A stretch of 64,000 nt of DNA. It comes from Dimorphilus gyrociliatus (lineage: Eukaryota > Animalia > Annelida). The DNA is taken from positions 1 to 64,000 of the forward strand of contig CAJFCJ010000083.1 in NCBI GenBank assembly GCA_904063045.1. Reading direction: 5' to 3'. Below the pieces are notes generated by a model. The model was not told the origin of the DNA. It did not search any database and saw only the letters and a program-made list of their open reading frames with translations. Positions 1 to 48,399 of this stretch are shown one piece after another; positions within the stretch are counted from its first letter, which is position 1; each line of letters opens with the position of its first letter. The position numbers and the translations under genes are program-made.

Positions 1-2128
1 TTCTTGTTGGGAATCTAATTGTTCAGAGATGATTTTAGTCTCATCTAAAAATATACTGACTCATTGTCTGTGTCACTTGTATTTCTTCTCATCTTGGGAT
101 GAATCACCACTATGAGGGACTCATTATCGAATGGTTATGTCAATAATTTCACCTTCAATAATTATTGACTCATTATCCGAATGGTTATATCAATAATTTC
201 GCTTTCAAATTATTGACTCATTGTCTGAACTAGATATTTCATCTCTCTATCAAGAATAATGTTTGCCTCTGAATCTGTATTTTGATCCAGTTCATTATTT
301 GTTTCTGTGTCATCACTTTCAGATGAGCTTGAAGGTTCATTGAGACTGTAATTACTGTCTGTTTAAAGTATTGCTTGTGTCATAACCAGTATCAGAATTA
401 GTAACTTCCATCTCTGAGTCATCACTATCTAGCTTTCTGATGAAGAGTCATGCTGTCCCATCATGGCTATAGTGACTTTGTTAGTTGAGGTTGCCTTATT
501 CTTTCAGCCAGGTTCCCTTTCCTTCTATCAAATTTGAGAGAACACTGTTTAGCTTCAAAATTGAGGTTTGCTCCCACAGTTGTAGGAAATCACAACCAAG
601 TTTATTGCTATGTTAGATTTCCATAACTATAAATTCTTGTTCCATACTTTCTCCAGCAAATTGGATATTCAGCTTTACGCTTCCTTTTGCTTTAAAGCTT
701 TCCCATCAGCTGAAGTTATAATTGGTAAGCCAATTGTTCTTATCCATAATTGTAACATCCATTAACTTGATTTCTTTTTCAGTAATAAAGATCTCAATGC
801 TCCGTGTCACACAAGGCAATGACTTCTTGGCCTTTTTGATCTTCAAACGAATTGAAGTCATTTCTTCCTTCTACCTGAGAAAGATATTGGAGTGTGTTAT
901 TTCCTTCTCCACAAGGTGAAAGATTGTTGTTGCTTCTTCCCTGTTTCCAACTTATTAGATTCATTGCTAGTCTTAATCTGCTACCATGTACCAACTTGCA
1001 TGTATTATCATCCATTTGATTTCATATATCCACTTTTGATGATTGACTTTTGTTATTCGGTATGGCCTAACCATTTTAAAGAAGGATTTTGTTATTGCAA
1101 TTCTTGCAGCATCATTCTTAAGAATACTTCATCATCAACCTCAAAATATTTTGGAAGATTGAGATTTCTATTCTTTCTTTCCCTATATTGTTCTTTTGCC
1201 AGATGATTTACAGAAGGCTGTAGCTCTTAACTTACAATTGCTGCTGGTGATTAATACAAATAGTACATTTGTTTCAGGAGAGGTAGTATGCATTGTTACA
1301 TCAATCAGTGTTCTTGTGCTGTGCCAAAAAGAAGTTCCTGGGTGGTAGTCTTGTACTTCCTACAGGTGATTGATTCAAAAATGCTTGAATCAAGGTAGGT
1401 TTGCAACCCAGTATGCTGATTTTCTTCCACCACTAATTTATTGATTTCCTTCCTCACTTCTCATTTCTTCGTTCAACTAGTCCATTGCTCTGGCTTCTAT
1501 AAGCTGTTGTTTGGATTTTCTCAATACCTAATACCTTCATAAACTCTTTAAAAGCTTTACCAACAAAGTTTCTTCCTTATCTGTCAACATTTGTTTTGGA
1601 ATCCAAAAATGGGAAAAAATCTGTTGAAAAGAAGTTTGCAATTTCTTTACTGGTTCTGTTTGAGTGCATATAAAACTGTGTATCTACTAAATGATCCACT
1701 ATCACAAGTATGAATCTGTATGCTTAACCATGGGTAAGGGTCCCATTATATCCATGGCTACCAACTCCATTGGTGATGCAGGTGAAAGTTTCTACCAAAG
1801 GTATACTCTACTCCTACCATTCATTTGTTCACACAAAGTGCAATCCTTTATTGAATTCTCAATCATAATCTTTAATTTTGGTGCCAAAAGTCTTTGTAAT
1901 TATTTGTAATGTCATTCTGGTCCATGGTGATTGTGAATTTTATTTTTATGGAATTTAGGAGCAGATTAGCATCAAATGGTCAGGTAAAACCAGAATGTTT
2001 CTTTCTTCAAGGATAATCCAGATCATTTCCTTGTGAACAAACATCTCCATTATGAAAGGTGTAAAAGTTCCAAAATAAGAATAGGTAGCTGACCATCCAT
2101 GTTAAATATTCTTTAATTGATTTTAAAT
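1..2128 (-). pseudogene. Integrase + second aspartic protease + acidic linker of copy 1, broken by many 1-bp deletions (probably consensus errors)
   Basis: Near-identical to 11855-14030 apart from scattered single-base, mostly homopolymer deletions; the ORF 794..1015 retains VIALCDT. Confidence 0.88.
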
Positions 2129-5100
2129 TCACATCTTTTCTTGCTCTGACTGTAAGTCAACAGAAGACAAATCAATTTTCTCTTCACTGTTATCACTGGT
2201 AGCTACAAAAGTTAACTCTGGTGTATGTTCATACTGTTCCATTTTAACTGAAATAGAGGGAGAATTCTCCTTTTTGATCTTTCCATGAATTAGCTCTTCA
2301 AATGTTACTTTCCTTGGGGGTGTATATTCTTCTAATCTTGTTAATGCATCTGCTCTATTTTTTCGTCCTGTCACATAGTTAATTGTAAATTTTAAATCCA
2401 TTAAAGCCATGACCCATTTTGCTGTGCTGACATTCAATTTGTTTTGCTTAAATGTTTGTACTAGACTCTGATGGTCAGTATATAAAAAGAATGGCTTGTC
2501 TTGAAGGTAATGTAAAAATTTCTTTACAACCCAGTAAACACCAAATGCTTCCTTTTGATAGGCTGCATATTTCATTTGATTATTGTTGAATTGTTTTGAA
2601 GCGTAGGCAATGGGTTTCATTGTTTTCTTCCCATTCTCATCTACATAAACTTGTTCAAGAACTCCTCCTACAGCTACATTCGATGCATCTGTTGTTAAGT
2701 GAAAATCTTTAGCAAAATCAGGTAGTTGTAATACAGGAGGGTTAACTACTGCATCTCTCAACTTGAAAAATGATTGCTTGGCTTCCTCAGTCCATTGCAA
2801 TTTATCCTTTTTCCCATGTAGTTTCATTAACATATACAGAGGTTTAGCTACTCTTGCAAAATCTTGTATAAATTTTCTGTAATAGCCACAAAATGCAACA
2901 AAGCTTAGTAGTGAATTTGCAAACACTGGTGGCTGTAAATTATATAATTTATCTGTCTTGGACTTATCTGTTTCAATCCCCTTTTCTGATACAATGTGTC
3001 CCAAGAATTGAACTTGTTCTTTCAAAAACACACATTTACTTAGTTTAATCTTAAAATTGTACTTTTGAATCTGTTGAAGAATGGTCTCCAATGCTTCCCA
3101 ATGTTGGTCCAGCGACTTGGTAAATATTATTATGTCATCAAGGTAGTTTAGGCACAAATGCTTTACATCCTTTAGCACAAATGAATTCATTACATAACTA
3201 AAATGAGGAGGGGCATTGGTTAATCCAAAAGGCATCTTAATAAATTCAAACAAGCCAAAAGGTGTAATAAATGCTGTTTTAGACCTATCTTCTTTCTTGA
3301 TGTTAATGTGGTGGTATGCACTTGTCAAATCCATTGTAGAAAAGAATTTATTTCCTCCTCCCAAATGGTCAAAAAGATCATCTTGATTTGGCAGTGGATA
3401 CTTGTTTTTAACTGTCATTTTGTTTAGTTTTCTATAATCTACACACATTCGTAGACTACCTTCCTTCTTTCTTACGAAAACAATTGGTGAAGCCCAATTG
3501 CTCTTGCTTGGTTGAATAACTTTGCTTTTTACCAATTCAGCTATCTGTTGCTTACATTCTTCTTGTTTTTGAGGAGGCATTCTATATGGCCTTTGTCTAT
3601 ATGGTGTTGAACCTGGTTCAAGAGTTATTTCCAAGGGTGGTACCTCTGGATTGCCAATATCAAATCTGTCTTCTGCAATAGTTTCTTTATATTTTGCCAG
3701 AATTTGGGTAACTTTGTTCTTCATCTCGGGATTTTCTTGTTCAATTGTTGTCTGAAGGGTATGTATTTGACTCTCATTCTTTTTCATAATAAGAGGAACT
3801 GGGTAAAACCCTTTGAAAGATAAGTGTTGTGTTCCAACAGGGTAATTCTTTTCTGTACCTGGCTGGAGTATAATCTGTCTCTTGCCAAAGTCAAGGGTAG
3901 CTCCATTTTGTTGTAGAAAGTCACACCCAATAATACATTGTTGTGTAATGATTTTGTTGATCAGAAAGCGTTGTTTAATAATCTTTTCATTAAAATAAAG
4001 TCTGAGAATGATTTCTCCACATATCTCGATGCTATTTCCTGAAGCATCTCTAGCATTTTTCACAGTTTGTTCTGGGAAGGATGCTTTTCCTTGAACTTGT
4101 CTTAATACCTTTTTTGAAATGAAAGATCTGTCACTACCAGAGTCTATCAAGGCATCAAACTTAAAACCAGTATTAGTTTCAAATTGTCCAATAAATGTTG
4201 AAGCATTTCGCTCAGATTGTTTGCTTTGTAACAGCTGACAAGTGGATTCGTCACTATCTGAAAAACAGAGAATATCTTGAACTTCGTCGTTTTCTGACAT
4301 GCTTTCATTGTCTAATGTTTCTAATTTTTGTAGCTTAGGTTCCTCTTTCAGTATCGTCTTTGCTGGTTGATTTTTCTTATAATACCTATTTGTTGTAGTT
4401 GGTGCATACTTTTGGACTTTTTGGCTTGAAAACTTTTCTTTAGTAGCATTTTTGTTGTCAGGTACATGCTTTCTATTCCAGAAATTTGGGGTTTCTGTAG
4501 AAGCATCTTTTCTGATTACCTGGGTCTTTTTGGTCTCTTTTCTTTGTTGAGTTTCCAATTTTGACACCATTGTGATCAGTTTTCTTTGAGTTAGTTTTAA
4601 TGAAGTTTCTGCTTGCTTAGCAGCCTCATATAGTTCTGCCAATGTTTGACATTTAGGATGTAAGGTGTACACTAAATGTAGAATATCCTGTTGTAATCCT
4701 CTTTGTAAAACTTCCATCAGTTTTATTTCTTTCATAGTTGCAAGCAATTGTGGTTCCATTGGTCTAGGTGGAGAAAACCTCTTTATCAATTTCTTTGCTC
4801 TATTAACAAACTGAACCACACTTTCGCCATTCATTTGCTTTAAGTTAAGCAATTTCTCCTGATACTCCAAAGGATCTAGATCAAATTCGTCATGGAGGGC
4901 TTTCCATATTTCCTCCACAGTAGGCTCTCCATCCAGAGCCAACACCAAATCCTTTGCAGGACCAGTTAAATAATCTAAAAGATTTGCTTTCACAACATCT
5001 TCTCCTATCCAACCATAAGCATAACATGCCTGATTAAAGTCTTCTTTGAATTTTGAACACTCCTTGCTTCCATCATACAACTTGAGAATAGTTCTTTGAG

Positions 5101-5371
5101 GGCGGTCCCAAGCAGCCCTTAATGCTTGAATTACTGTTGTGATATCAACATTTGGGTTCTGTGCTGGGTGATGTGTTCCATCTCCATGATCTGTTGGAAT
5201 TGTGATTCGATTTCTTTTCATTTCACTCACCAATCTATCATAGTCTTCAATTAGTCTCTGTTGCCTTTCTGGCATTTCTGCTGGCTGAATTGTAATTGTT
5301 GGAGTTGCTGGGGTTGAAGGGTTAGAGTCTGTAACTGCCCCAGTGGCATTTCCATTTCCTCCTTCTGCCAT
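2129..5371 (-). CDS. Gag-protease-RT-RNase H polyprotein of copy 1 (single frame, no gag/pol frameshift)
   Basis: Protease LIDSGS...IIGCDFL; RT RMCVDYRKLN, MPFGLTNAP, YLDDIIIF; RNase H TTDAS, KEAFGV, TDHQSL, NRADALTR. First ATG after the PBS is MAEGG at 5371. Gag has no CCHC knuckle. Confidence 0.95.
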   Translation of the reverse strand: MAEGGNGNATGAVTDSNPSTPATPTITIQPAEMPERQQRLIEDYDRLVSEMKRNRITIPTDHGDGTHHPAQNPNVDITTVIQALRAAWDRPQRTILKLYDGSKECSKFKEDFNQACYAYGWIGEDVVKANLLDYLTGPAKDLVLALDGEPTVEEIWKALHDEFDLDPLEYQEKLLNLKQMNGESVVQFVNRAKKLIKRFSPPRPMEPQLLATMKEIKLMEVLQRGLQQDILHLVYTLHPKCQTLAELYEAAKQAETSLKLTQRKLITMVSKLETQQRKETKKTQVIRKDASTETPNFWNRKHVPDNKNATKEKFSSQKVQKYAPTTTNRYYKKNQPAKTILKEEPKLQKLETLDNESMSENDEVQDILCFSDSDESTCQLLQSKQSERNASTFIGQFETNTGFKFDALIDSGSDRSFISKKVLRQVQGKASFPEQTVKNARDASGNSIEICGEIILRLYFNEKIIKQRFLINKIITQQCIIGCDFLQQNGATLDFGKRQIILQPGTEKNYPVGTQHLSFKGFYPVPLIMKKNESQIHTLQTTIEQENPEMKNKVTQILAKYKETIAEDRFDIGNPEVPPLEITLEPGSTPYRQRPYRMPPQKQEECKQQIAELVKSKVIQPSKSNWASPIVFVRKKEGSLRMCVDYRKLNKMTVKNKYPLPNQDDLFDHLGGGNKFFSTMDLTSAYHHINIKKEDRSKTAFITPFGLFEFIKMPFGLTNAPPHFSYVMNSFVLKDVKHLCLNYLDDIIIFTKSLDQHWEALETILQQIQKYNFKIKLSKCVFLKEQVQFLGHIVSEKGIETDKSKTDKLYNLQPPVFANSLLSFVAFCGYYRKFIQDFARVAKPLYMLMKLHGKKDKLQWTEEAKQSFFKLRDAVVNPPVLQLPDFAKDFHLTTDASNVAVGGVLEQVYVDENGKKTMKPIAYASKQFNNNQMKYAAYQKEAFGVYWVVKKFLHYLQDKPFFLYTDHQSLVQTFKQNKLNVSTAKWVMALMDLKFTINYVTGRKNRADALTRLEEYTPPRKVTFEELIHGKIKKENSPSISVKMEQYEHTPELTFVATSDNSEEKIDLSSVDLQSEQEKM

Positions 5372-5409
5372 ATTTACTTTCTCAAAACTTTTGAATAAAC
5401 CAAAAGAAT

Positions 5410-5427
5410 ATCCTGCCAACTGCACCA
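5410..5427 (-). promoter_or_regulatory. Primer-binding site of copy 1 (variant TGGTGCAGTTGGCAGGAT)
   Basis: 4 nt inside the LTR; 3 differences from the copy 2 PBS. Confidence 0.75.
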
Positions 5428-5431
5428 AATT

Positions 5432-6066
5432 TGAACTGCTCTTGCTGGCAAAATTTATGCATTTGCAAGTTATAACAATACTGGTTCTACTCGAACCTTT
5501 AAACAAATGTTTAAATTAAAACTGTTTATTTGCAATAATAATACTTAAGCAAGTAACAATATGAGAGTTCAATAGCAGAGTAGATAGTTTGTAATAGCAG
5601 GTTGCCAAATTACCAAACTGTCTTCCAATGTTGAGGAGTAGATGGATGGTTCCAGTGGAGGTTGTTTCCAGATGATTTTCCCAGGTCCTTGGGTCCAGAT
5701 GGAAGCTGCATGCCAAATGAGAATAATGAGGATTTATATACTTTGAGGTTTGTCTCTGACATCCAATCATCACTTTACAGTTGCCGAAATGTGTAGTTCA
5801 TATTTATCTTTAGTAACAGGATGTTACAAGGTTCAACATTTAGGAAGGTTAATTGAATTATAACTTGGCCACACCCTAGGCAAGTTAATTAAATTATAAC
5901 TTGGCCAAACCTTTATTGGTAATTAAAGATGAACCTTCAAGCTGACTGATCAGACTTATGTTTGGCCAATGTTATAGCATTTTCTTGCGTAGGTTTTAAG
6001 ATGTACATGTATATGTTGCATAAAATAATAGAGTTCAAGCATGTAAAATATAACCAAAGTTGTACA
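5432..6066 (-). repeat. 5' LTR of copy 1 (635 bp)
   Basis: About 98% identical to the LTRs at 8497 and 17345. The minus strand starts TGTACA; the other end is mutated (TGAACT on +). Confidence 0.95.
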
Positions 6067-7379: not shown

Positions 7380-8496
7380 TTCAACAATTTATGGAAGGCA
7401 AAAATATTTGAAATGCAGCCTTTGTAAGAATCTTATTCATAGGAAATGCACAGGTATGTAACTCTTTAATCAGCTTTCATGTAATTATATTTTTTTAACA
7501 TATTCTTATAGAAACACATAACATACCAATTTGCAAACCTTGTAACAAAAAGAAAATGTACTGTCATGCTCAAGAAGTTAACTAATCTGGAAATTCATCA
7601 ATTCAAAGTAAATTCTGAAGAAAGCTTTATTGATGAAAGAAATAAGATTGCTGCAGTTGAGGAATCAATATTGGAGGATGAAAATCATGTTCTTTCAGAA
7701 TGCCAATCAATGGACCTAGACTCTTTGGAGGAAGTTGAAGAGAATGCTGAAGAATATTGTGAATCATCCACAAAAAGTGATTTTGAGATTGTAAAAGGAG
7801 AAGTAGAAAGGGACATGACATTTTACTGAATGATGGATATTCTTTTGTTGTTAAACATTAAAACACCATCAAGTACTATTTGGGTGTGCAGTGTGAGAAG
7901 TAAGAAGAAAAGATGTGTGGCCAGAATAAGACAAAATGGAAATTTATTTCTCAAAGGCAATTTGGAACATAATCACAACAGAAAAAAGAATTTAGAAGTG
8001 GATATTAAAGTGAAAACAGATTTGAAAATTGTTTGCAGAAGTGATAATCAAACAATCTGGAAGAAGCATTGCTGAAAAAGTTCTTCTATCCTATGAACCC
8101 AATGCAACTTGTCTTCCTGATATCAACTATTTGAAGAGAATGGCAAACTCAAATAGACAAAAGTTTAGGCCAGTGGAACCTAAAGTGTACAACTTTAATT
8201 TAGATGAAACATTTTTGCCTGATGAATTTTTGCAGAAAAGATATTTGTGAAAATGGAGAAAGAATTTTAATCTTTGCAACAAACCATCAGCTGAATTTAT
8301 TATCAAAATCCAACTGTTGGTACATTGATGGTACTTTCAAGATTGTAAAAGAACCATTTTATCAACTTGTCACTATTCACTCATTTGTTAAGAAGAGTGG
8401 TGATATGAAGCAAGTTCCTCTTGTTTTTATTTTTCTGACTTCAAAGCATACCAAAGCATACTTACAAGCATTTCAAGTAAATATTTCATATTATCT
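7380..8496 (+). mobile_element. PHD-like/FLYWCH/MULE (Mutator, Phantom-like) transposase remnant, truncated by an LTR
   Basis: CSLCKNLIHRKC; WVCSVRSKKKRCVARI...HNH (FLYWCH); WYIDGTFKIVKEPFYQLVTIH...VPLVF (MULE); stops and frameshifts present. Confidence 0.85.
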
Positions 8497-9131
8497 TGTA
8501 CTGCTCTTGCTGGCAAAATCTATGTGTTTGCAAGTTATAACAATACTGGTTCTACTCGAACCTTTAAACAAATGTTTAAATTAAAATGGTTTATTCGCAA
8601 TAATAATACTTAAGCAAGTAACAATATCAGAGTTCGATAGCAGAGTAGATAGTTTGTAAAAGCAGGTTGCCAAATTACCAAACTGTCTTCTAATGTTGAG
8701 GAGTAGATGGATGGTTCCAGTGGAGGTTGTTTCCAGATGATTTTCCCAGGTCCTTGGGTCCAGATGGAAGCTGCATGCCAAATGAGAATAATGAGAATTT
8801 ATATACTTTGAGGTTTGTCTCTGACATCCAATCATCACTTTACAGTTGCCGAAATGTGTAGTTCATATTTATCTTTAGTAACAGGATGTTACAAGGTTCA
8901 ACATTTAGGAAGGTTAATTGAATTATAACTTGGCCACACCCTAGGCAAGTTAATTAAATTATAACCTGGCCAAACCTTTATTGGTAATTAAAGATGAGCC
9001 TTCAAGCTGACTAATCAGACTTATGTTTGGCCAATGTTATAGCATTTTCTTGCGTAGGTTTTAAGATGTACATGTATATGTTGCATAAAATAATAGAGTT
9101 CAAGCATGTAAAATATAACCAAAGTTGTACA
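8497..9131 (-). repeat. 3' LTR of copy 2 (635 bp)
   Basis: TGTACTGC...GTTGTACA termini; I count 10 differences from the LTR at 17345. Confidence 0.95.
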
Positions 9132-9145
9132 ACTTCCCCTTCTTT
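9132..9145 (-). promoter_or_regulatory. Polypurine tract
   Basis: Minus strand AAAGAAGGGGAAGT directly abuts the 3' LTR TGTACA. Confidence 0.85.
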
Positions 9146-9161
9146 GTGAAGATGAGTCCCT

Positions 9162-11749
9162 TCATCTTGATTTAATGAGAATTACAGGTGGTTGTTCTTC
9201 TTCATTAGTTTGATGTTGACTAAAGCTACAACTTTGTTTCATTAGTTTTGGGTTTTCAGGAGAGTTATCTGTGCTCTCACTTGGGGTAGCAATTTCTTCT
9301 CTTTGTTTTCTTCTTCCAATAATATAGTTGAAAATGATGATACATACCATTGACACTACAATACTCAAACAAATATTTCGTATGATAACATAAAGTGTTT
9401 TCCCAGGTTTATAGTACCAACTATGGAAAAACTTTTTAATTCCAGATAAATTGGGTACAATGCCATTTTTCTCTGCAACAGTGACCATGTTATCATACCT
9501 TGCCTGCTTCTGTTCCAGTGAACTGATAACTTGCTTAATTTTTGAGTGCTGGTATGCAATATCCTTCTTTACCCATGGTGGAGTAGATCAGCTAATCTGG
9601 CAATTTCAATTTTTGGTTCAGAAAGGTGATTGTGGATATGTAACTGCATGGATTTTGCAGACACAGTGTGAAATCTGCATCCTCTTTCTGAATAATACAC
9701 ATACGTTTTGTCTTCATTGGTTGGTTTTCTTATAGGATTTAATGGGTTGTGAGTTGTTTTGTAGAATAACTTNTTGGCAATTTCAATTTGGTTCAGAAAG
9801 GTGATTGTGGATATGAACTGCATGGATTTTGCAGACACAGTGTGAAATCTGCATCCTCTTTCTGAATAATACACATACGTTTTGTCTTTCATTGGTTGGT
9901 TTCTTATGGTTTAATGGGTTGTGAGTTGTTTTGTAGAATAACTTGTAGACTTACACTCATTATAGGTAATCTCTTCAGGATTGACTTGCTGTAAAACATG
10001 AGTAACTGTTCTACTTGGAAAAGCAGGTTGTTCATGGTGACAAGTAAAAATTGAGAACATTTGTTATTCTTTTTATCATGCTTAAGTCACAAACTACTTC
10101 TGTTGAGGCTATTGGTGAACATTGTTTAATTATAGCTAATTCTCCCATCTGACTACTGTGCATTCCCAACTCATTTGTTAACACTGTGGTCAATTGAGGA
10201 TCCAAATTTGCTAGTAATGCCATCATTCTGCTTCTTTGAACAAATTGATTGCAGAGAAGACTTGACAGCTGTTGGGTAAACTTTTTTAAATTCTTAAAAT
10301 TTGAATCAATACCATGTAGTAAGGTAGATGTTTGGGCAGCTTCTCTCATTTCCAATGGGAATTTGTGGTATGGGTTTTTACTTATCTTATGTTTCATTTT
10401 GCTTCCTTCTTCATCTGCTTTTTAGCCATTCTCATGTGTAGAGTAAAATAAATTCCTTCATAGGTAATCTTAAATTCTCTGGCTGGTGTCCTTTATACCA
10501 TATGCCCAATGTTGGTAATACCTTCCTTCTTTTTGATTCTTTTCTCACTGTATACATATTTTGAAATCGTCACAGATTGTCTTGTTGCCCTTGTCCAATT
10601 GACTGCTTGCAGCATTTCTTGGAATATTAATAGTTATCCAGCTCCAGTAAGATGGACTAATGGGTTGTTGTAGATGATATATCACAACTTCCTTGAGTGT
10701 GCCTTTATTTCTCATTAGTTTATACTTTGTGTTTGTTTCTCTGTACCATTGGTTAAGACTTGGTAAGGGGTTGTTTCGCTTGTATAGTATAATTTGTTCT
10801 TTAACTTTATTGGGATAGTTTAATAGTCGTTTTTCTTCATTTTTGCCAATCTTCTGATATTGTAGCAAATGTATAGGTGTTCCTTGCTTGTTTCCTGTAT
10901 TAAACTCTGTTCCTCCAGTGGTACTAGTACTTTTGTTCCAGGACCACCAATTCCATCAATAAACTTATCTTGATAAGGGATGTCCAGAATAGAATACCCT
11001 GGACAAGAATAGTGACCAGCAAATTTGATACAACTAATTCTGTTGCTAATTTTATCCATGTGATTGTTGCCCAAGTGTGTAATTATTCTTGAGGTTCCTC
11101 AAGACAATAATTGCCTCTTCTGTTTCACAATAGGACTGCCCTGGTAAACAATCTTCCAGGTAGTCCAGATTAGTTGTAATTTTCATATTAGGAGGTTGCC
11201 AATATGCTTTGCCAAACTGGATAATTGTGGTGTATTCCAGCACCTTGGTAGTTGTTGGCCATGTGTAGGCAGCAGGAAACTGATCTTGGTGGATCCAAGT
11301 GTTTCTTTTCACCATTAAAGGTTTTCCTTGAAAAGATCGTTTGTCTTTTACATCTGTCTGCATTGATCATGAGTTACTTTGATAACTGAGTTAACAATCC
11401 TCCTCTTCTTTGCTCCAAAGAAATAGTAAGTGTAAAAATTAGTTCTTAGATACACTTGACATTTTACTGCTCTTGTTTCAATTTCTTCCAAGTTCAATTC
11501 ATAGATATCAGCTGTAATTGTCTTGGTTTCTTGTGATTCTATATTACAAGTTGGCTCATCTGCTAGATCAAATGCCTGGCTTGGTAGTTGGTTAGAACAA
11601 AAGTATAACGGTGGTTTAAATGTTAAGGTAATGTTTGCACTTGTAACATGGGCACCTTGGTAGGATGGTTTTGGGACTGTTATTGAGTGGATGCAGCCAC
11701 AGATCACCATTACAGTCATCACTAGTGGAAGCCACAACATCTGTTTCAT
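9162..11749 (-). CDS. env: Envelope glycoprotein, class III fusogen-like (herpes gB/chuvirus G-like), split by frameshifts
   Basis: Signal-like MKQMLWLPLVMTVMVICGCIHS at 11749, Cys-rich ectodomain across 6 ORF pieces, LLCNQ..NLDPQ..MGELAIIKQC segment, TM LYVIIRNICLSIVVSMVCIIIFNYII followed by GRRKQR, and a stop just before the PPT. Confidence 0.8.
9598..9944. repeat. ~175-bp tandem duplication around a single N (probable contig-join artefact)
   Basis: 9598-9772 is repeated at 9775-9944 with differing homopolymer indels; N at 9773. Confidence 0.85.
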
Positions 11750-11967
11750 GTTAGCTCTTCCTGTGTTGGCTATAGTTGAATGGTTGAAAATTTTGTGTTG
11801 TTGTTCCACTCTGATAGTTATTCCATCTTCTAACTCTATATATTGTGGTTCCACTTCTTGTTGGGAATCTAATTGTTCAGAGATGATTTTAGTCTCATCT
11901 AAAAATATGACTGACTCATTGTCTGTGTCACTTGTATTTTCTTTCTCATCTTGGGATGAATCTACCA

Positions 11968-14157
11968 CTATGAGGACTCATTATCTGAATGGGTTATGTC
12001 AATAATTTCACCTTCAATAATTATTGACTCATTATCCGAATGGGTTATATCAATAATTTCGCTTTCAATAATTATTGACTCATCGTCTGAACTAGATATT
12101 TCATCTTCTCTATCAGAGATAATGTTTGCCTCTGAATCTGTATTTTGATCCAGTTCATTATTTGTTTCTGTGTCATCACTTTCAGATGAGCTTGAAGGTT
12201 CATTGAGACTGTAATTACTGTCTGTTTTGAAAGTATTGCTTGTGTCATAACCAGTATCAGAATTAGTAACTTCCATCTCTGAGTCATCACTATCTGAACT
12301 TTCTGATGAAGAGTCATGCTGTCCCATCATGGCTATAGTGACTTTGTTTAGTTGAGGTTGCCTTATTCTTTCAGCCAGGTTCCCTTTCCTTCTATCAAAT
12401 TTGAGAGAACACTGTTTAGCTTCAAAATTGAGGTTTGCTCCCACAGTTTGTAGGAAATCACAACCAAGTATTATTGCTATGTCTAGATTTTCCATAACTA
12501 TAAATTCTTGTTCCATACTTTCTCCAGCAAATTGGATATTCAGCTTTACGCTTCCTTTTTGCTTTAAAGCTTTCCCATCAGCTGAAGTTATAATTGGTAA
12601 GCCAATTGTTTCTTTATCCATAATTGTAACATCCATTAACTTGATTTCTTTTTCAGTAATAAAGGATCTCAATGCTCCTGTGTCACACAAGGCAATGACT
12701 TCTTGGCCTTTTTGATTCTTCAAACGGAATTGGAAGTCATTTCTTCCTTCTACCTGAGAAAGATATTGGAGGTGTGTTATTTCCTTCTCCACAAGGTGAA
12801 AGATTGTTGTTGCTTCTTTCCCTGTTTCCAACTTATTAGATTCATTGGCTAGTCTTAATCTGCTACCATGTACCAACTTGCATGTATTATCATCCATTTG
12901 TATTTCATATATCCACTTTTGATGATTGACTTTTGTTATTCGGTATGGGCCTAACCATTTTAAAGAAGGGATTTTTGTTATTGCAATTCTTGCAGCATCA
13001 TTTCTTAAGAATACTTCATCATCAACCTCAAAATATTTTGGAAGATTGAGATTTCTATTCTTTCTTTCCCTATATTGTTCTTTTGCCATGATGGATTTAC
13101 AGAAGGCTGTAGCTCTTAACTGTACTAATTGCTGCTGGTGATTGAATACAAATAGTACATTTGTTTCAGGAGAGGTAGTATGCATTGTTACATCAATCAG
13201 TGTTCTTGTGCTGGTGCCAAAAAGAAGTTCCTGGGGTGGTAGTCTTGTACTTCCTACAGGTGATTGATTCAAAAATGCTTGAATCAAGGGTAGGTTTGCA
13301 ACCCAGTTATGCTGATTTTCTTCCACCACTAATTTATTGATTTCCTTCCTCACTTCTCTATTTCTTCGTTCAACTAGTCCATTGCTCTGGCTTCTATAAG
13401 CTGTTGTTTGGATTTTCTCAATACCTAATACCTTCATAAACTCTTTAAAAGCTTTACCAACAAAGTTTCTTCCTTGATCTGTCAACATTTGTTTTGGAAT
13501 TCCAAAAATGGGAAAAAATCTGTTGAAAAGAAGGTTTGCAATTTCTTTACTGGTTTGCTGTTTGAGTGCATATAAAACTGTGTATCTACTGAAATGATCC
13601 ACTATCACAAGTATGAATCTGTATGACTTAACCATGGGTAAGGGTCCCATTATATCCATGGCTACCAACTCCATTGGTGATGCAGGGTGAAAGGTTTCTA
13701 CCAAAGGGTATACTCTACTCCTACCATTCATTTGTTCACACAAAGTGCAATCCTTTATTGAATTCTCAATCATAATCTTTAATTTTGGGTGCCAAAAGGT
13801 CTTTGTAATTATTTGTAATGTCATTCTGGGTCCATGGTGATTGTGAATTTTATTTTTATGGAATTTAGGGAGCAGAGTTAGCATCAAATGGTCAGGTAAA
13901 ACCAGAATGTTTCTTTCTTCAAGGATAATCCAGATCATTTCCTTGTGAACAAACATCTCCATTATGAAAGGTGTAAAAGTTCCAAAATAAGGAATAGGTA
14001 GCTGACCATCCAATGTTAAATATTCTTTAATTGATTTTAAATTCACATCTTTTTCTTGCTCTGACTGTAAGTCAACAGAAGACAAATCAATTTTCTCTTC
14101 ACTGTTATCACTGGTAGCTACAAAAGTTAACTCTGGTGTATGTTCATACTGTTCCAT
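11968..14157 (-). CDS. Integrase (HHCC, DDE, GPY/F) fused to a second retropepsin protease and an acidic tail
   Basis: H..HHG...CTLC; AMDIMGPLP, VDHFSRY, TDQGRNF, NGLVERRN; WLGPYRI; then ALCDTGALRSFI...IILGCDFL; then a D/E/S-rich tail. Confidence 0.93.
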   Translation of the reverse strand: MEQYEHTPELTFVATSDNSEEKIDLSSVDLQSEQEKDVNLKSIKEYLTLDGQLPIPYFGTFTPFIMEMFVHKEMIWIILEERNILVLPDHLMLTLLPKFHKNKIHNHHGPRMTLQIITKTFWHPKLKIMIENSIKDCTLCEQMNGRSRVYPLVETFHPASPMELVAMDIMGPLPMVKSYRFILVIVDHFSRYTVLYALKQQTSKEIANLLFNRFFPIFGIPKQMLTDQGRNFVGKAFKEFMKVLGIEKIQTTAYRSQSNGLVERRNREVRKEINKLVVEENQHNWVANLPLIQAFLNQSPVGSTRLPPQELLFGTSTRTLIDVTMHTTSPETNVLFVFNHQQQLVQLRATAFCKSIMAKEQYRERKNRNLNLPKYFEVDDEVFLRNDAARIAITKIPSLKWLGPYRITKVNHQKWIYEIQMDDNTCKLVHGSRLRLANESNKLETGKEATTIFHLVEKEITHLQYLSQVEGRNDFQFRLKNQKGQEVIALCDTGALRSFITEKEIKLMDVTIMDKETIGLPIITSADGKALKQKGSVKLNIQFAGESMEQEFIVMENLDIAIILGCDFLQTVGANLNFEAKQCSLKFDRRKGNLAERIRQPQLNKVTIAMMGQHDSSSESSDSDDSEMEVTNSDTGYDTSNTFKTDSNYSLNEPSSSSESDDTETNNELDQNTDSEANIISDREDEISSSDDESIIIESEIIDITHSDNESIIIEGEIIDITHSDNESS
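11975..12090 (-). repeat. 51-bp (17-aa) coding tandem repeat ESIIIE(S/G)EIIDITHSDN
   Basis: GACTCAT recurs at 11975, 12026 and 12077. Confidence 0.9.
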
Positions 14158-14219
14158 TTTAACTGAAATAGAGGGAGAATTCTCCTTTTTGATCTTTCCA
14201 TGAATTAGCTCTTCAAATG

Positions 14220-15701
14220 TTACTTTCCTTGGGGTGTATATTCTTCTAATCTTGTTAATGCATCTGCTCTATTTTTTCGTCCTGTCACATAGTTAATTGT
14301 AAATTTTAAATCCATTAAAGCCATGACCCATTTTGCTGTGCTGACATTCAATTTGTTTTGCTTAAATGTTTGTACTAGACTCTGATGGTCAGTATATAAA
14401 AAGAATGGCTTGTCTTGAAGGTAATGTAAAAATTTCTTTACAACCCAGTAAACACCAAATGCTTCCTTTTGATAGGCTGCATATTTCATTTGATTATTGT
14501 TGAATTGTTTTGAAGCGTAGGCAATGGGTTTCATTGTTTTCTTCCCATTCTCATCTACATAAACTTGTTCAAGAACTCCTCCTACAGCTACATTCGATGC
14601 ATCTGTTGTTAAGTGAAAATCTTTAGCAAAATCAGGTAGTTGTAATACAGGAGGGTTAACTACTGCATCTCTCAACTTGAAAAATGATTGCTTGGCTTCC
14701 TCAGTCCATTGCAATTTATCCTTTTTCCCATGTAGTTTCATTAACATATACAGAGGTTTAGCTACTCTTGCAAAATCTTGTATAAATTTTCTGTAATAGC
14801 CACAAAATGCAACAAAGCTTAGTAGTGAATTTGCAAACACTGGTGGCTGTAAATTATATAATTTATCTGTCTTGGACTTATCTGTTTCAATCCCCTTTTC
14901 TGATACAATGTGTCCCAAGAATTGAACTTGTTCTTTCAAAAACACACATTTACTTAGTTTAATCTTAAAATTGTACTTTTGAATCTGTTGAAGAATGGTC
15001 TCCAATGCTTCCCAATGTTGGTCCAGCGACTTGGTAAATATTATTATGTCATCAAGGTAGTTTAGGCACAAATGCTTTACATCCTTTAGCACAAATGAAT
15101 TCATTACATAACTAAAATGAGGAGGGGCATTGGTTAATCCAAAAGGCATCTTAATAAATTCAAACAAGCCAAAAGGTGTAATAAATGCTGTTTTAGACCT
15201 ATCTTCTTTCTTGATGTTAATGTGGTGGTATGCACTTGTCAAATCCATTGTAGAAAAGAATTTATTTCCTCCTCCCAAATGGTCAAAAAGATCATCTTGA
15301 TTTGGCAGTGGATACTTGTTTTTAACTGTCATTTTGTTTAGTTTTCTATAATCTACACACATTCGTAGACTACCTTCCTTCTTTCTTACGAAAACAATTG
15401 GTGAAGCCCAATTGCTCTTGCTTGGTTGAATAACTTTGCTTTTTACCAATTCAGCTATCTGTTGCTTACATTCTTCTTGTTTTTGAGGAGGCATTCTATA
15501 TGGCCTTTGTCTATATGGTGTTGAACCTGGTTCAAGAGTTATTTCCAAGGGTGGTACCTCTGGATTGCCAATATCAAATCTGTCTTCTGCAATAGTTTCT
15601 TTATATTTTGCCAGAATTTGGGTAACTTTGTTCTTCATCTCGGGATTTTCTTGTTCAATTGTTGTCTGAAGGGTATGTATTTGACTCTCATTCTTTTTCA
15701 T
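14220..15701 (-). CDS. Reverse transcriptase-RNase H of copy 2
   Basis: Protein matches copy 1 up to the frameshift. Separated from its neighbours by single homopolymer deletions (T-run ~15900, G-run ~14232) that are absent in copy 1. Confidence 0.95.
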   Translation of the reverse strand: MKKNESQIHTLQTTIEQENPEMKNKVTQILAKYKETIAEDRFDIGNPEVPPLEITLEPGSTPYRQRPYRMPPQKQEECKQQIAELVKSKVIQPSKSNWASPIVFVRKKEGSLRMCVDYRKLNKMTVKNKYPLPNQDDLFDHLGGGNKFFSTMDLTSAYHHINIKKEDRSKTAFITPFGLFEFIKMPFGLTNAPPHFSYVMNSFVLKDVKHLCLNYLDDIIIFTKSLDQHWEALETILQQIQKYNFKIKLSKCVFLKEQVQFLGHIVSEKGIETDKSKTDKLYNLQPPVFANSLLSFVAFCGYYRKFIQDFARVAKPLYMLMKLHGKKDKLQWTEEAKQSFFKLRDAVVNPPVLQLPDFAKDFHLTTDASNVAVGGVLEQVYVDENGKKTMKPIAYASKQFNNNQMKYAAYQKEAFGVYWVVKKFLHYLQDKPFFLYTDHQSLVQTFKQNKLNVSTAKWVMALMDLKFTINYVTGRKNRADALTRLEEYTPQGK

Positions 15702-15874
15702 AATAAGAGGAACTGGGTAAAACCCTTTGAAAGATAAGTGTTGTGTTCCAACAGGGTAATTCTTTTCTGTACCTGGCTGGAGTATAATCTGTCTCTTGCC
15801 AAAGTCAAGGGTAGCTCCATTTTGTTGTAGAAAGTCACACCCAATAATACATTGTTGTGTAATGATTTTGTTGA

Positions 15875-17284
15875 TCAGAAAGCGTTGTTTAATAATCTTT
15901 CATTAAAATAAAGTCTGAGAATGATTTCTCCACATATCTCGATGCTATTTCCTGAAGCATCTCTAGCATTTTTCACAGTTTGTTCTGGGAAGGATGCTTT
16001 TCCTTGAACTTGTCTTAATACCTTTTTTGAAATGAAAGATCTGTCACTACCAGAGTCTATCAAGGCATCAAACTTAAAACCAGTATTAGTTTCAAATTGT
16101 CCAATAAATGTTGAAGCATTTCGCTCAGATTGTTTGCTTTGTAACAGCTGACAAGTGGATTCGTCACTATCTGAAAAACAGAGAATATCTTGAACTTCGT
16201 CGTTTTCTGACATGCTTTCATTGTCTAATGTTTCTAATTTTTGTAGCTTAGGTTCCTCTTTCAGTATCGTCTTTGCTGGTTGATTTTTCTTATAATACCT
16301 ATTTGTTGTAGTTGGTGCATACTTTTGGACTTTTTGGCTTGAAAACTTTTCTTTAGTAGCATTTTTGTTGTCAGGTACATGCTTTCTATTCCAGAAATTT
16401 GGGGTTTCTGTAGAAGCATCTTTTCTGATTACCTGGGTCTTTTTGGTCTCTTTTCTTTGTTGAGTTTCCAATTTTGACACCATTGTGATCGGTTTTCTTT
16501 GAGTTAGTTTTAATGAAGTTTCTGCTTGCTTAGCAGCCTCATATAGTTCTGCCAATGTTTGACATTTAGGATGTAAGGTGTACACTAAATGTAGAATATC
16601 CTGTTGTAATCCTCTTTGTAAAACTTCCATCAGTTTTATTTCTTTCATAGTTGCAAGCAATTGTGGTTCCATTGGTCTAGGTGGAGAAAACCTCTTTATC
16701 AATTTCTTTGCTCTATTAACAAACTGAACCACACTTTCGCCATTCATTTGCTTTAAGTTAAGCAATTTCTCCTGATACTCCAAAGGATCTAGATCAAATT
16801 CGTCATGGAGGGCTTTCCATATTTCCTCCACAGTAGGCTCTCCATCCAGAGCCAACACCAAATCCTTTGCAGGACCAGTTAAATAATCTAAAAGATTTGC
16901 TTTCACAACATCTTCTCCTATCCAACCATAAGCATAACATGCCTGATTAAAGTCTTCTTTGAATTTTGAACACTCCTTGCTTCCATCATACAACTTGAGA
17001 ATAGTTCTTTGAGGGCGGTCCCAAGCAGCCCTTAATGCTTGAATTACTGTTGTGATATCAACATTTGGGTTCTGTGCTGGGTGATGTGTTCCATCTCCAT
17101 GATCTGTTGGAATTGTGATTCGATTTCTTTTCATTTCACTCACCAATCTATCATAGTCTTCAATTAGTCTTTGTTGCCTTTCTGACATTCCTGCTGGCTG
17201 AATTGTAATTGTTGGAGTTGCTGGGGTTGAAGGGTTAGAGTCTGTAACTGCCCCAGTGGCGTTTCCATTTCCTCCTTCTGCCAT
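15875..17284 (-). CDS. Gag-protease of copy 2
   Basis: MAEGG start at 17284; LIDSGSDRSFI motif; few substitutions relative to copy 1. Confidence 0.93.
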   Translation of the reverse strand: MAEGGNGNATGAVTDSNPSTPATPTITIQPAGMSERQQRLIEDYDRLVSEMKRNRITIPTDHGDGTHHPAQNPNVDITTVIQALRAAWDRPQRTILKLYDGSKECSKFKEDFNQACYAYGWIGEDVVKANLLDYLTGPAKDLVLALDGEPTVEEIWKALHDEFDLDPLEYQEKLLNLKQMNGESVVQFVNRAKKLIKRFSPPRPMEPQLLATMKEIKLMEVLQRGLQQDILHLVYTLHPKCQTLAELYEAAKQAETSLKLTQRKPITMVSKLETQQRKETKKTQVIRKDASTETPNFWNRKHVPDNKNATKEKFSSQKVQKYAPTTTNRYYKKNQPAKTILKEEPKLQKLETLDNESMSENDEVQDILCFSDSDESTCQLLQSKQSERNASTFIGQFETNTGFKFDALIDSGSDRSFISKKVLRQVQGKASFPEQTVKNARDASGNSIEICGEIILRLYFNERLLNNAF

Positions 17285-17322
17285 ATTTACTTTCTCAAAA
17301 CTTTTGAATAAACCAAAAGAAT

Positions 17323-17340
17323 ATCCTGTCGACTGCGCCA
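17323..17340 (-). promoter_or_regulatory. Primer-binding site TGGCGCAGTCGACAGGAT, tRNA-Ser type
   Basis: Starts with TGG 4 nt from the LTR. Complementary to a ...ATCCTGTCGACTGCGCCA tRNA 3' end, like the tRNA-Ser PBS of the 17.6/297-type errantiviruses (recalled, not searched). Confidence 0.8.
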
Positions 17341-17344
17341 AATT

Positions 17345-17979
17345 TGTACTGCTCTTGCTGGCAAAATCTATGCGTTTGCAAGTTATAACAATACTGGTTC
17401 TACTCGAACCTTTAAACAAATGTTTAAATTAAAATGGTTTATTCGCAATAATAATACTTAAGCAAGTAACAATATGAGAGTTCAATAGCAGAGTAGATAG
17501 TTTGTAATAGCAGGTTGCCAAATTACCAAACTGTCTTCCAATGTTGAGGAGTAGATGGATGGTTCCAGTGGAGGTTGTTTCCAGATGATTTTCCCAGGTC
17601 CTTGGGTCCAGATGGAAGCTGCATGCCAAATGAGAATAATGAGGATTTATATACTTTGAGGTTTGTCTCTGACATCCAATCATCACTTTACAGTTGCCAA
17701 AATGTGTAGTTCATATTTATCTTTAGTAACAGGATGTTACAAGGTTCAACATTTAGGAAGGTTAATTGAATTATAACTTGGCCACACCCTAGGCAAGTTA
17801 ATTAAATTATAACTTGGCCAAACCTTTATTGGTAATTAAAGATGAACCTTCAAGCTGACTAATCAGACTTATGTTTGGCCAATGTTTTAGCATTTTCTTG
17901 CGTAGGTTTTAAGATGTACATGTATATGTTGCATAAAATAATAGAGTTCAAGCATGTAAAATATAACCAAAGTTGTACA
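17345..17979 (-). repeat. 5' LTR of copy 2 (635 bp)
   Basis: TG..CA ends with TGTAC inverted termini, internal AATTATAACTTGGCCA direct repeat, AATAAA on the minus strand near 17438-17443. Confidence 0.95.
17645..17653 (-). promoter_or_regulatory. Candidate LTR TATA box (TATATAAAT)
   Basis: About 200 bp upstream of AATAAA, with an ATTGG (inverted CCAAT) just upstream of it. Confidence 0.5.
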
Positions 17980-35929: not shown

Positions 35930-37125
35930 GGAACAATGTTTCAACAGTAAATTTCCAAATACCATACATTGCTTATCATCTAAAATACAATTGCGTAATC
36001 CAAGATTTTTCAGAGTGTTTTTGATGATCCTAGGAGTCCTTTACAAATCTTCAAAAATATTACTGTACTGCTCTTGCTGGCAAAATCTATGTGTTTGCAA
36101 GTTATAACAATACTGGTTCTACTCGAACCTTTAAACAAATGTTTCAATTAAAACGGTTTATTCGCAATAATAATACTTAAGCAAGTAACAATATGAGAGT
36201 TCGATAGCAGAGTAGATAGTTTGTAAAAGCAGGTTGCCAAATTACCAAACTGTCTTCTAATGTTGAGGAGTAGATGGATGGTTCCAGTGGAGGTTGTTTC
36301 CAGATGATCTTCCCAGGTCCTTGGGTCCAGATGGAAGCTGCATGCCAAATGAGAATAGTGAGGATTTATATACTTTGAGGTTTGCCTCTGACATCCAATC
36401 ATCACTTTACAGTTGCTGAAATGTGTAGTTCATATTTATGTTTAGTACGAGGATGTTATAAGGTTGAACATTTAGGAAGGTTAATTGAATTATAACTTGG
36501 CCACACCCTAGGCAAGTTAATTAAATTATAACTTGGCCAAACCTTTATTGGTAATTAAAGATTGAGCCTTGAAGCTGACTAATCAGACTTATGTTTGGCC
36601 AATGTTATAGCATTTTCTTGAGTAGGTTTTAAGATGTACATGTATAAGTTCCATCAAATAATACAGTTCAACCATGTAAAATATAACCAAAGTTGTACAC
36701 TACCTTTTCTTCCAGCTGAAGCTATTCTAAACAGTTTTTACATGCTAAAAGATAAAGCTTTTGAGAGAAATGAATTTCTGGATTTTTTTCAATACATTGA
36801 CAGTACTTGGATTAAGCATTCAATTTGGACACCAGATTGTTGGTCTGTATTTGGTCTTGCCATCAGAACCAACAATGATGTTGAAGGATGGCACAGAAGA
36901 ATGAATGAAAAAACACCTGCAAAGGGGTCACTTTATATGCTCATAGACATTTTAAAACAGGAGTCATGTCTTATTCCAGTTGTTGAGAAACTTCTTTAAG
37001 AAAAAAGGCTAAAGAAGTATCAGAAGAAAAGTGTGATTCCACCCTTGGGACGTTTTTTCCCCCCCTTAGGACGTTTTTTCCCACTCTGGGATGTTTTTTC
37101 CCAGGGACGTCTTTTTCCCATACTC
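35930..37125 (+). mobile_element. MULE transposase C-terminal remnant with terminal GGACGTTTTTTCCC repeats, interrupted by a solo LTR
   Basis: Removing the LTR plus one TSD restores ...SKILPFLPAE...WSVFGLAIRTNNDVEGWHRRMN; four ~15-bp repeats at 37045-37120. Confidence 0.85.
36064..36699 (-). mobile_element. Solo LTR (636 bp) of the same family
   Basis: Full LTR with no PBS or PPT; flanked by TTAC / CTAC (4-bp TSD with 1 mismatch). Confidence 0.92.
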
Positions 37126-44400: not shown

Positions 44401-44920
44401 AACAATTACACTTATTAATGTAAATTTTTTTAAAGAAATTAAAAATAATAAATTAATTTCAGTCTACAGTTTTCTCAAAAGTGTTTTATAATTAACTGAA
44501 GTGCACATCTATGTTTGGTTAAATGTTGTTGACTTAGTATAGAGCTATTATTGGCAGAATTCTACTACAGATGTCGTTACACCACCTAACAACAGTGCCT
44601 AACAACATGAGATCTTTACTACTTGCCTCTATCAGAACAAGCTGTTAGAATGTAAGTTTTCTAAACTATTCATTATTAATGTATGCATTATTTTAAGTAC
44701 CATTTAATTAATAATTGTGAATTTGTGCAAATGATCAACTATACAATATGGATAAATAGAACATTTAAAAAAAAAATAGGTTAAATTATTGTATTTCACA
44801 ATAGGCTATTTCATGAGATAAAAATAGATTTTATAGAAAAAATCACAATACCAAGATCAAAAAGCTAAAAATTTTCTTTTTAAAAAGCTGAAATATATTG
44901 ATCTCTTTCAGAATGAAAAT

Positions 44921-48260: not shown

Positions 48261-48399
48261 ATGTTTTGTAGCTGGATGAACATAACAGAATTTTTCAAGT
48301 GATCTAAAAGTGAATTTATTTTAATATTTCACTTGTTTCATTGGAGCCTTTTTTAAATTGCTTTTAAGTTCTATTTCATTCTCTATTTCACAGTTGAAT

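What the first reader, a model, noticed from the sequence alone, without database searches (positions are those of the whole stretch)
9162..17284. Possible single Gag-PR-RT-RH-IN-PR2-Env polyprotein (~2,650 aa)
Seen: every break in copy 2 gag-pol is a 1-bp homopolymer loss absent in copy 1, and vice versa. At the pol/env junction copy 1 reads TATGAGGGACTC (111-122) where copy 2 reads TATGAGGACTC. The extra base turns ...ITHSDNESS* into ...ITHSDNESLIVVDSSQDEKE, in frame with the ORF leading to the Env signal peptide, and it continues the DNES-I/L/V-I repeat pattern. Established: errantiviruses and retroviruses express Env from a separate, usually spliced ORF. Inference: this element may encode Env in one flavivirus-like polyprotein with an internal signal sequence, and PR2 would release it. 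Env expression from the internal ATG at 11749 or by splicing remains possible.
Basis: partly seen in the sequence, partly recalled or inferred. Interest (0 to 1): 0.85.

Follow-up and report, generated by a model that had tools for sequence, protein, structure and literature searches.

The report
Two-protease single-frame enveloped retrotransposon
Short-read data show that this virus-like jumping gene's apparent stop between its enzymes and its predicted envelope protein is an assembly error, which leaves one reading frame of about 2,650 codons with an unusual second protease; the envelope is likely cut free by the cell's signal peptidase, and single-frame layouts are already known in related elements.

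Summary
Confirmed. Contigs from 4 of 4 runs laid (2 studies) differ from the window at the pol/env junction just as copy 1 does, so the stop at 11968-11970 is an assembly error. With the lengths of the 19 differences, every stretch between breaks is stop-free in the predicted phase, and ATG 17284 to stop 9162 spans 2,652 codons. A natural relative confirms three env phases. The order is Gag-PR1-RT-RH-IN-PR2-acidic linker-internal signal-Env-TM.

Single-frame Gag-Pol-Env is not new: the hookworm Atlas belpaovirus has it, 3 of 139 rows in an errantivirus survey table carry that label, and this scan noted single-frame Gag-Env-Pol elements in other genomes. The family probably equals the published Dgyr_errantivirus_1, annotated as GAG-POL with a chromodomain.

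New here: an intact second retropepsin after integrase, likely an old duplicate of PR1 (31% identity), followed by SUMO-interacting-motif-like repeats. Topology makes signal peptidase, not PR2, the likely releaser of Env; PR2 could only cut on the cytosolic side. A separate env RNA starting at ATG 11749 is untested. New variant of a known kind.

The parts
17345..17979 (-). 5' LTR of copy 2, 635 bp, termini TG...CA
17329..17340 (-). Primer-binding site; same 12-mer as listed for Dgyr_errantivirus_1
16150..17284 (-). Gag (start ATG 17284); weak PNMA-type capsid hit; no CCHC knuckle. End approximate
15743..16123 (-). PR1, retropepsin with DSG; broken at about 15898 in copy 2, uninterrupted in copy 1 (3830-4210)
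14904..15389 (-). Reverse transcriptase core (YLDD)
14313..14708 (-). RNase H
12853..13896 (-). Integrase: zinc-binding domain, core, and weak p58_C-type C-terminal module; no Pfam chromodomain hit
12370..12750 (-). PR2, second retropepsin after integrase, catalytic DTG at 12684 (residue about 1535); 31% identical to PR1 over 98 aa
11750..12327 (-). Acidic Ser-rich linker that spans the junction; 51-bp tandem repeat; SIM-like cores at 12087, 12057, 12036, 12006 and 11923
11968..11977 (-). pol/env junction: frame break and stop in the window, not carried by short-read contigs
11675..11749 (-). In-frame ATG 11749 (residue about 1847) and hydrophobic signal-like segment (best window 11731-11675)
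9375..11674 (-). Predicted Env ectodomain, broken in the window at about 11350, 11059, 11049, 10869, 10643-10624, 10521, 10487, 10396, 10069, 10007, 9945-9773, 9725-9712 and 9571
9598..9944 (.). 174-bp tandem duplication around an N at 9773; skipped by contigs of X1, X2 and X4, so a gap-join artefact
9318..9374 (-). C-terminal transmembrane segment of Env
9162..9317 (-). Cytoplasmic tail (about 51 aa) and stop codon 9164-9162
9132..9144 (-). Polypurine tract
8497..9131 (-). 3' LTR of copy 2; differs from the 5' LTR at 10 of 635 positions; no target-site duplication
1..6066 (-). Copy 1: 5' LTR 5432-6066, uninterrupted Gag-PR1-RT-RH frame 2129-5515, error-rich from about 2140 down to the window edge
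36064..36699 (-). Solo LTR of the same family, about 96% identical

Best explanation
This is an env-carrying Ty3/gypsy-type LTR element whose breaks in the window are assembly errors, leaving one open frame of 2,652 codons (Gag-PR1-RT-RH-IN-PR2-acidic linker-signal-Env-TM); Env is likely made as the tail of that polyprotein and cut free by host signal peptidase, while PR2 would act on the cytosolic side. Inferred steps: the hydrophobic segment at about residues 1853-1871 would act as an internal signal, and signal peptidase would release a type I Env of about 780 aa. Gag-Pol would stay tethered to the membrane through the signal stub until an element protease cuts it loose. PR2, the protease next to that stub, is the likeliest to make this cut, much as flavivirus and alphavirus proteases free capsid from the following signal (analogy recalled). 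The SIM-like repeats would then ride on the C-terminal PR2 or IN-PR2 product.
For: Shown: the junction difference in 4 of 4 runs. All 20 inter-break stretches have 0 stops in the predicted phase (two are too short to hold a codon after trimming), against 18-85 stops in each other phase of the four longest. P0046 aligns colinearly to three env stretches only in the predicted phases (E 4e-35, 1e-23, 5e-21). The 74 codons between the junction and ATG 11749 are stop-free, against 66 of 20,000 shuffles; the 129 codons before the junction are stop-free, against 0 of 20,000. Only two transmembrane-like segments were found in the 8 pieces scanned, one at each end of Env. PR2 passes Pfam RVP_2 and RVP cut-offs and keeps DTG and the ILGCDFL motif although only 31% identical to PR1. 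Precedent: the Atlas single 2,828-aa Gag-Pol-Env polyprotein (PMC9094657, passages); P0009, with RT-RH-IN, a linker and membrane segments in one frame.
Against: No expression or protein data. ATG 11749 has an A at -3 and is followed directly by an ordinary-looking signal peptide, so a separate env RNA would work equally well; Oikopleura Tor elements use splicing or an internal promoter (PMC4402516, passages). One minor X5 contig (depth 38 against 678) replaces 11885-12015 with 25 other letters and is out of frame there. Codons within 4 bases of each break were not examined. The fourth env stretch tested did not align to P0046 in any phase. The Env class was not confirmed: best hit Rhabdo_glycop_FD at E 0.11 on the relative. 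Signal-peptidase and PR2 cleavage sites are not shown. No relative with integrase followed by a protease was found among 45 long proteins. A 1:1:1 Gag:Pol:Env ratio needs some correction that was not identified.
Confidence: 0.6

Rival explanations
1. The frame is continuous, but most Env comes from a subgenomic RNA (spliced, or from an internal promoter) that starts translation at ATG 11749. The fusion is then a minor or secondary route.
For: Good start context and a standard N-terminal signal peptide directly after ATG 11749. Tor3a uses splicing and Tor3b/4b an internal promoter (PMC4402516, passages). Three pyrimidine-rich sense acceptors lie within 11740-12700.
Against: The linker stays open and in frame for 74 codons before the ATG (66 of 20,000 shuffles) and the repeat motif continues across the junction. 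Only one GTRAG donor was found in 16900-17700.
Confidence: 0.25
2. PR2 and the acidic SIM-like array form a SUMO-directed accessory protease or SUMO-binding module that acts on host chromatin or silencing proteins. It would have nothing to do with Env release.
For: EIIDITHSD occurs twice and resembles RNF4 SIM2 and SIM3 (DEIVDLTCES, VVVDLTHND; PMC4083429, passage) and the PIAS VIDLT core with acidic flanks (PMC3901395, passages). A type-b pattern gives 2 hits in 192 aa against 0 in the other 2,186 aa scanned, and 0 of 10,000 shuffles reach 2. PR2 is catalytically intact.
Against: The two IIDIT hits are copies of one tandem repeat. The two broader SIM patterns (recalled) were not enriched: 2 hits against a mean of 0.84 (2,019 of 10,000 shuffles reach it), and 0 hits. 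The acidic-core pattern was written after seeing the sequence. DLT is the published core and here it is DIT. None of 46 stored proteins shows such an array. No binding test was possible.
Confidence: 0.12
3. PR2 is a leftover of an old internal duplication and is dispensable; PR1 does all the cytosolic processing.
For: PR2's best match is PR1 of the same element (40 bits against at most 13 for proteases in 46 stored proteins). The X5 contig lacks 20 codons of PR2.
Against: Catalytic and substrate-groove motifs survive divergence to 31% identity. The X5 skip has the ends of an intron on the opposite strand, so it is probably antisense splicing and not a DNA deletion.
Confidence: 0.1
4. The stop at the junction is real in intact copies and env is a separate ORF, as in the published annotation.
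For: The window shows the stop. The probable same family is labelled GAG-POL in the survey. One minor X5 contig is out of frame at the junction.
Against: 4 of 4 runs and copy 1 lack the break.
Confidence: 0.03

Closest known systems
Annelida_Polychaeta_Dgyr_errantivirus_1 (Chary and Hayashi, eLife 2026, PMC13524379, Supplementary files 1 and 4)
   Same: Identical PBS 12-mer; LTRs of 631 and 636 bp against 635 here; LTR-to-LTR span 9,315 against 9,320 once contig lengths are allowed for. Listed as HSV/gB-type Env, 7 copies. Probably the same family; not compared at sequence level.
   Different: Labelled GAG-POL and credited with a chromodomain. Here the frame runs on into Env, a second protease follows integrase, and Pfam finds no chromodomain. 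The paper's figures and online sequences were not seen.
Ty3/gypsy errantiviruses labelled GAG-POL-ENV in the same survey (Saqu_1, Bcal_1, Pmet_4) and POL-ENV (Llat_2)
   Same: Labels imply a single frame through Env (3 and 1 of 139 rows; most rows carry no label). The meaning of the labels is my inference.
   Different: No second protease is mentioned: 'protease' occurs once in the main text and 'polyprotein' never. Their sequences were not examined.
Atlas virus and related Ancylostoma belpaoviruses (PMC9094657)
   Same: Single Gag-Pol-Env polyprotein without stops or introns, glycoprotein at the C-terminus.
   Different: Belpaoviridae with a YVDN motif and phlebovirus-like Gn/Gc; this element has YLDD, one Env anchor and a second protease.
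Oikopleura Tor elements (PMC4402516)
   Same: Env-carrying LTR elements of a marine invertebrate with membrane-bound Env.
   Different: Their env comes from a spliced RNA or an internal promoter; they are the model for the main rival explanation.
RNF4 poly-SIM region (PMC4083429, PMC3901395)
   Same: Clustered hydrophobic cores with acidic flanks; the closest resemblance is to SIM2 and SIM3.
   Different: RNF4 is a cellular ubiquitin ligase with DLT cores; the cores here read DIT, sit beside a retropepsin, and binding is untested.

Membership tests
Ty3/gypsy (Metaviridae) | Domain order PR-RT-RH-IN | tested here: met
Ty3/gypsy (Metaviridae) | LTRs with TG...CA termini, PBS and PPT | tested here: met
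Ty3/gypsy (Metaviridae) | Target-site duplication | tested here: not met
   Copy 2 flanks do not match; the copy may be a mosaic of two insertions or an assembly collapse. This bears on the copy, not on the family.
Ty3/gypsy (Metaviridae) | RT phylogeny within Ty3/gypsy | not tested
   No tree built. Top long relatives have the gypsy-type RT/RH/IN domain set; the probable same family was classed Ty3/gypsy in PMC13524379.
Errantivirus in the broad sense of PMC13524379 | Env with signal segment, ectodomain and C-terminal TM downstream of Pol | tested here: met
Errantivirus in the broad sense of PMC13524379 | Env of F type or HSV/gB (class III) type | tested here: inconclusive
   Only Rhabdo_glycop_FD at E 0.11 on P0046; no furin motif in the pieces scanned; model pLDDT 32; PDB and Atlas searches uninformative. 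The published label for the probable same family is ENV_HSV.
Canonical errantivirus layout | env as a separate ORF | tested here: not met
Belpaoviridae (Atlas type) | Single Gag-Pol-Env frame | tested here: met
Belpaoviridae (Atlas type) | YVDN RT motif and phlebovirus-like Gn/Gc | tested here: not met
   YLDD; one C-terminal anchor. It works like Atlas in layout but is not a member.
Chromodomain-bearing errantiviruses | Chromodomain after integrase | tested here: not met
   No Chromo hit; the same library found one in P0040. A structure-level match was not testable (model pLDDT 32).
Retropepsin (PR2) | D-T/S-G triad and retroviral protease profile | tested here: met
Retropepsin (PR2) | Dimerisation and proteolytic activity | not tested
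   No complex prediction was run; activity needs a bench assay.
SUMO-interacting motif array | Hydrophobic cores with acidic flanks, clustered | tested here: inconclusive
   narrow patterns enriched, broad patterns not
SUMO-interacting motif array | Binding to SUMO | not testable with these tools

The most novel reading that the evidence does not exclude
The element carries, between integrase and Env, a duplicated retropepsin fused to a poly-SUMO-binding array: a transposon-encoded SUMO-targeted protease that is released from the single polyprotein and cuts SUMOylated host silencing or chromatin factors, or steers integration to SUMO-rich chromatin.
Probability: 0.12. Interest if true: 0.85.

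Novelty: new variant of a known kind. Interest (0 to 1): 0.5.

Why it matters
It corrects the layout of a catalogued enveloped retrotransposon: assembly errors hid a single frame, so surveys built on such assemblies may undercount single-polyprotein errantiviruses. It also gives a compact case for an open question, how an element that makes Gag, Pol and a membrane protein from one frame separates its cytosolic and lumenal parts and sets their ratio. The second protease and the SIM-like array can each be tested as isolated domains. If they prove to be a SUMO-directed protease, that would be a new kind of transposon accessory function.

Tried and rejected
No whole genome is held for the window, so other copies could not be read directly.

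No RNA holder was listed among the runs; this says nothing about expression. No sense-strand splice joint appeared in the contigs laid, but contigs drop rare forms, so this is not evidence against a spliced env RNA.

Searches for Env relatives in long proteins found none: 62 candidates of 234-2,000 aa and 4,830 of 530-2,000 aa. Neither covered 2,650-aa proteins. The full HMMER scan of 1.84 billion representatives with a 160-aa env piece gave 1 hit, P0046, 302 aa on a 1,369-nt contig, too short to show what lies upstream. Two metagenome scans found no relative.

Both structure predictions were single-sequence and unusable (pLDDT 32), so no fold search was run. PDB sequence searches gave only weak ASPRV1 hits for PR2 (E 0.03) and chance hits for Env. 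The Atlas gave nothing above 0.77. No complex prediction was run, because a retropepsin dimer would likely pass by likeness to solved structures.

The first PR2 comparison used the wrong frame and was redone. The weak GP41 (E 0.005) and Phlebo_G2_C (E 0.016) hits on the last env piece were set aside as coiled-coil/TM matches below cut-off.

Rejected: PR2 as the enzyme that frees the Env ectodomain, on topology; the 174-bp env duplication as biological, since 3 runs skip it.

Literature searches for a second protease after integrase or a SIM array in LTR elements found nothing relevant: 0 papers; none of the 15 listed held the protease phrases; 3 listings, not read. The library lacks most subscription journals, including the nematode paper by Sacco et al. 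2022, which I did not see.
Full report
Anatomy. The window holds two copies of one LTR element on the minus strand and a solo LTR. Copy 2 runs from a 5' LTR (17345-17979) to a 3' LTR (8497-9131), both 635 bp with TG...CA termini, a primer-binding site at 17329-17340 and a polypurine tract at 9132-9144. Copy 1 (1-6066) is cut by the window edge just past the pol/env junction. Pfam finds a PNMA-type capsid (below cut-off), protease, RT, RNase H, integrase and a second protease after integrase. Copy 1 holds Gag-PR1-RT-RH in one uninterrupted frame of 1,128 codons. Copy 2 holds IN-PR2-linker in one of 766.

Copy comparison. The copies differ at 64 length events and 19 substitutions. Copy 1 is shorter at 60 events, all in its first 2,140 bases, a pattern typical of low-coverage long-read consensus (inference). 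Of these, 42 are in homopolymer runs and 18 are not. Copy 1 is longer at only 4 places: one cancels a loss two bases away, and the other three coincide with copy 2's breaks at about 15898, 14231 and 11974. Copy 1 alone is weak evidence for the junction, since it stays open for just 22 bases between its own errors.

Independent data. Five public runs from two studies hold the element, all as contigs. In one search, contigs from 4 of 4 runs differ in length from the window at 11973 at full depth, as copy 1 does. Some may be the window's own source data, but X5 (second study) carries a distinct variant with 16 substitutions in a 3,128-nt contig and shows the same thing. The indel table was cut to 12 rows. 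Gap counts and record lengths for X1 account for all differences from 9071 to 15900, apart from the 15897 break, where X1's contig ends and the other runs cover it. One minor X5 contig (depth 38 against 678) replaces 11885-12015 with other letters and is out of frame there; it may be a decayed or related copy.

One frame. Using only the places and lengths of the 19 differences inside the coding region, I examined each stretch between breaks on its own. All 20 have no stop in the predicted phase (two are too short to hold a codon after trimming); the four longest have 18-85 stops in each other phase. The total from ATG 17284 to the codon before the stop at 9164-9162 is 7,956 bases, 2,652 codons. 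Codons within four bases of a break were left out. As a separate check, the natural protein P0046 (48% identical, the only hit among 1.84 billion representatives) aligns colinearly to three successive env stretches only in the predicted phases; a fourth, beyond most of its length, did not align. The 174-bp duplication around the N at 9773 is skipped by X1, X2 and X4. The linker is open for 129 codons before and 74 codons after the junction, against 0 and 66 of 20,000 shuffles.

PR2. It passes the RVP_2 and RVP cut-offs, keeps DTG and ILGCDFL, and is 31% identical to PR1 over 98 residues. PR1 is its best match by far among 46 stored proteins (40 bits against 13), which suggests an old internal duplication. 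Retention of the catalytic motifs suggests constraint, but no selection test was possible. None of 45 long relatives has a protease after integrase; P0020 has two proteases, the second between RNase H and integrase.

Linker. It is acidic and Ser-rich (36 D/E and 2 K/R in 118 aa) and contains a 51-bp repeat. Narrow patterns are enriched (0 of 10,000 shuffles), but one was written after seeing the sequence, the two IIDIT are one repeat unit, and two broader recalled patterns are not enriched. This is a lead. That SUMO takes part in piRNA-guided silencing is recalled; the review checked (PMC11599104, passages) has one occurrence of the word, not among the passages shown.

Env. A hydrophobic segment follows ATG 11749 and a second lies 51 residues before the stop; no other TM-like segment and no furin motif was found in the pieces scanned. 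The class was not confirmed: the relative gives a rhabdovirus fusion-domain hit at E 0.11, and models and fold-level searches failed.

Mechanism. Shown: one frame, two intact protease motifs, two hydrophobic segments. Inferred: after about 1,850 cytosolic residues the internal signal enters the ER, signal peptidase releases Env, and an element protease frees Gag-Pol from the membrane-bound stub. A cytosolic retropepsin cannot reach the lumenal cut, so PR2 is unlikely to release Env itself; it may cut at the cytosolic side of the signal. The rival, a subgenomic env RNA starting at 11749, remains open and has precedent in Tor elements (PMC4402516, passages). The two routes could coexist.

Known systems. 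The survey PMC13524379 (abstract; sections 5 part 1, 6, 14, 22; passages; Supplementary file 1 part 1 and file 4 parts 2-3; figures not seen) lists Dgyr_errantivirus_1 with the same PBS 12-mer, similar LTR lengths and a span of 9,315 against 9,320 here: probably this family, labelled GAG-POL with a chromodomain and an HSV/gB-type Env. I find no chromodomain by Pfam. The main text has no hits for 'single ORF', 'fused', 'polyprotein', 'splic' or 'second protease', but 3 of 139 rows of one sheet are labelled GAG-POL-ENV and 1 POL-ENV, and Figure 1A on ORF arrangement could not be seen. Atlas virus has a single 2,828-aa Gag-Pol-Env polyprotein (PMC9094657, passages). P0009 is a natural RT-RH-IN protein that continues into membrane segments with a furin-site-plus-hydrophobic stretch, F-type-like by my reading. 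The rotifer paper (PMC5408684, passages) and the Troyka paper (PMC12440569, passages) showed no fused env or second protease. Earlier notes of this scan describe single-frame Gag-Env-Pol elements in other genomes. A second protease after integrase was not found in print, within a library that lacks most subscription journals.

Verdict. The single-polyprotein layout is a known kind. The second protease and the SIM-like linker are the new features, and their functions are untested. New variant of a known kind, interest 0.5.

Noticed in passing
window 12597-12656 and 9749-9978, plus strand: Contigs of run X5 skip these stretches (60 nt, and 59 nt once the gap-join duplication is discounted). Both have GTRAG donors and pyrimidine-rich CAG acceptors on the plus strand, antisense to the element; only 1 of 8,060 60-nt windows in the element has such ends. 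This suggests spliced antisense transcripts of one variant copy, as from a host transcript or small-RNA precursor. The kind of run X5 is not on record.
   Followed up: partly
window 8497-17979: Copy 2 has no target-site duplication and its LTRs differ at 10 of 635 positions, while the internal regions of the two copies differ at about 10 substitutions in 5.4 kb; it may be a mosaic of two insertions or an assembly collapse.
   Followed up: partly
window 8204-8496: Copy 2's 3' LTR abuts a MULE-like transposase fragment (E 0.009); contigs of X1 and X4 continue past 8496 with other sequence.
   Followed up: partly
window 46798-47089, 48117-48267, 53846-54440: Scattered fragments of a related family, 75-85% identical, with env pieces on the minus strand and an RT piece on the plus strand next to an env piece.
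   Followed up: partly
protein P0009: 1,973-aa natural protein with RT-RH-IN, a long linker and three membrane segments, apparently an F-type-like Env followed by a second Env-like domain in one frame; single-member cluster.
   Followed up: partly
protein P0020: Gypsy-type polyprotein with two protease domains (about 114-190 and 1052-1142), the second between RNase H and integrase; single-member cluster.
   Followed up: partly
window 18532-21780 and 28790-32038: 99.6% identical inverted duplication containing an LDLa-repeat rhodopsin-type receptor gene; recent duplication or assembly artefact.
   Followed up: no
window 33375-35303: 642-aa frame with chitin-binding CBM_14, TSP1 and C1q domains.
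   Followed up: no
window 44837-46099 and 60481-61539: Leucine-rich-repeat frames, the first built on a 171-bp repeat; an N run lies at 60488-60497.
   Followed up: no
window 16150-17284: Gag has no CCHC zinc knuckle and is in frame with Pol, with no frameshift site needed.
   Followed up: partly
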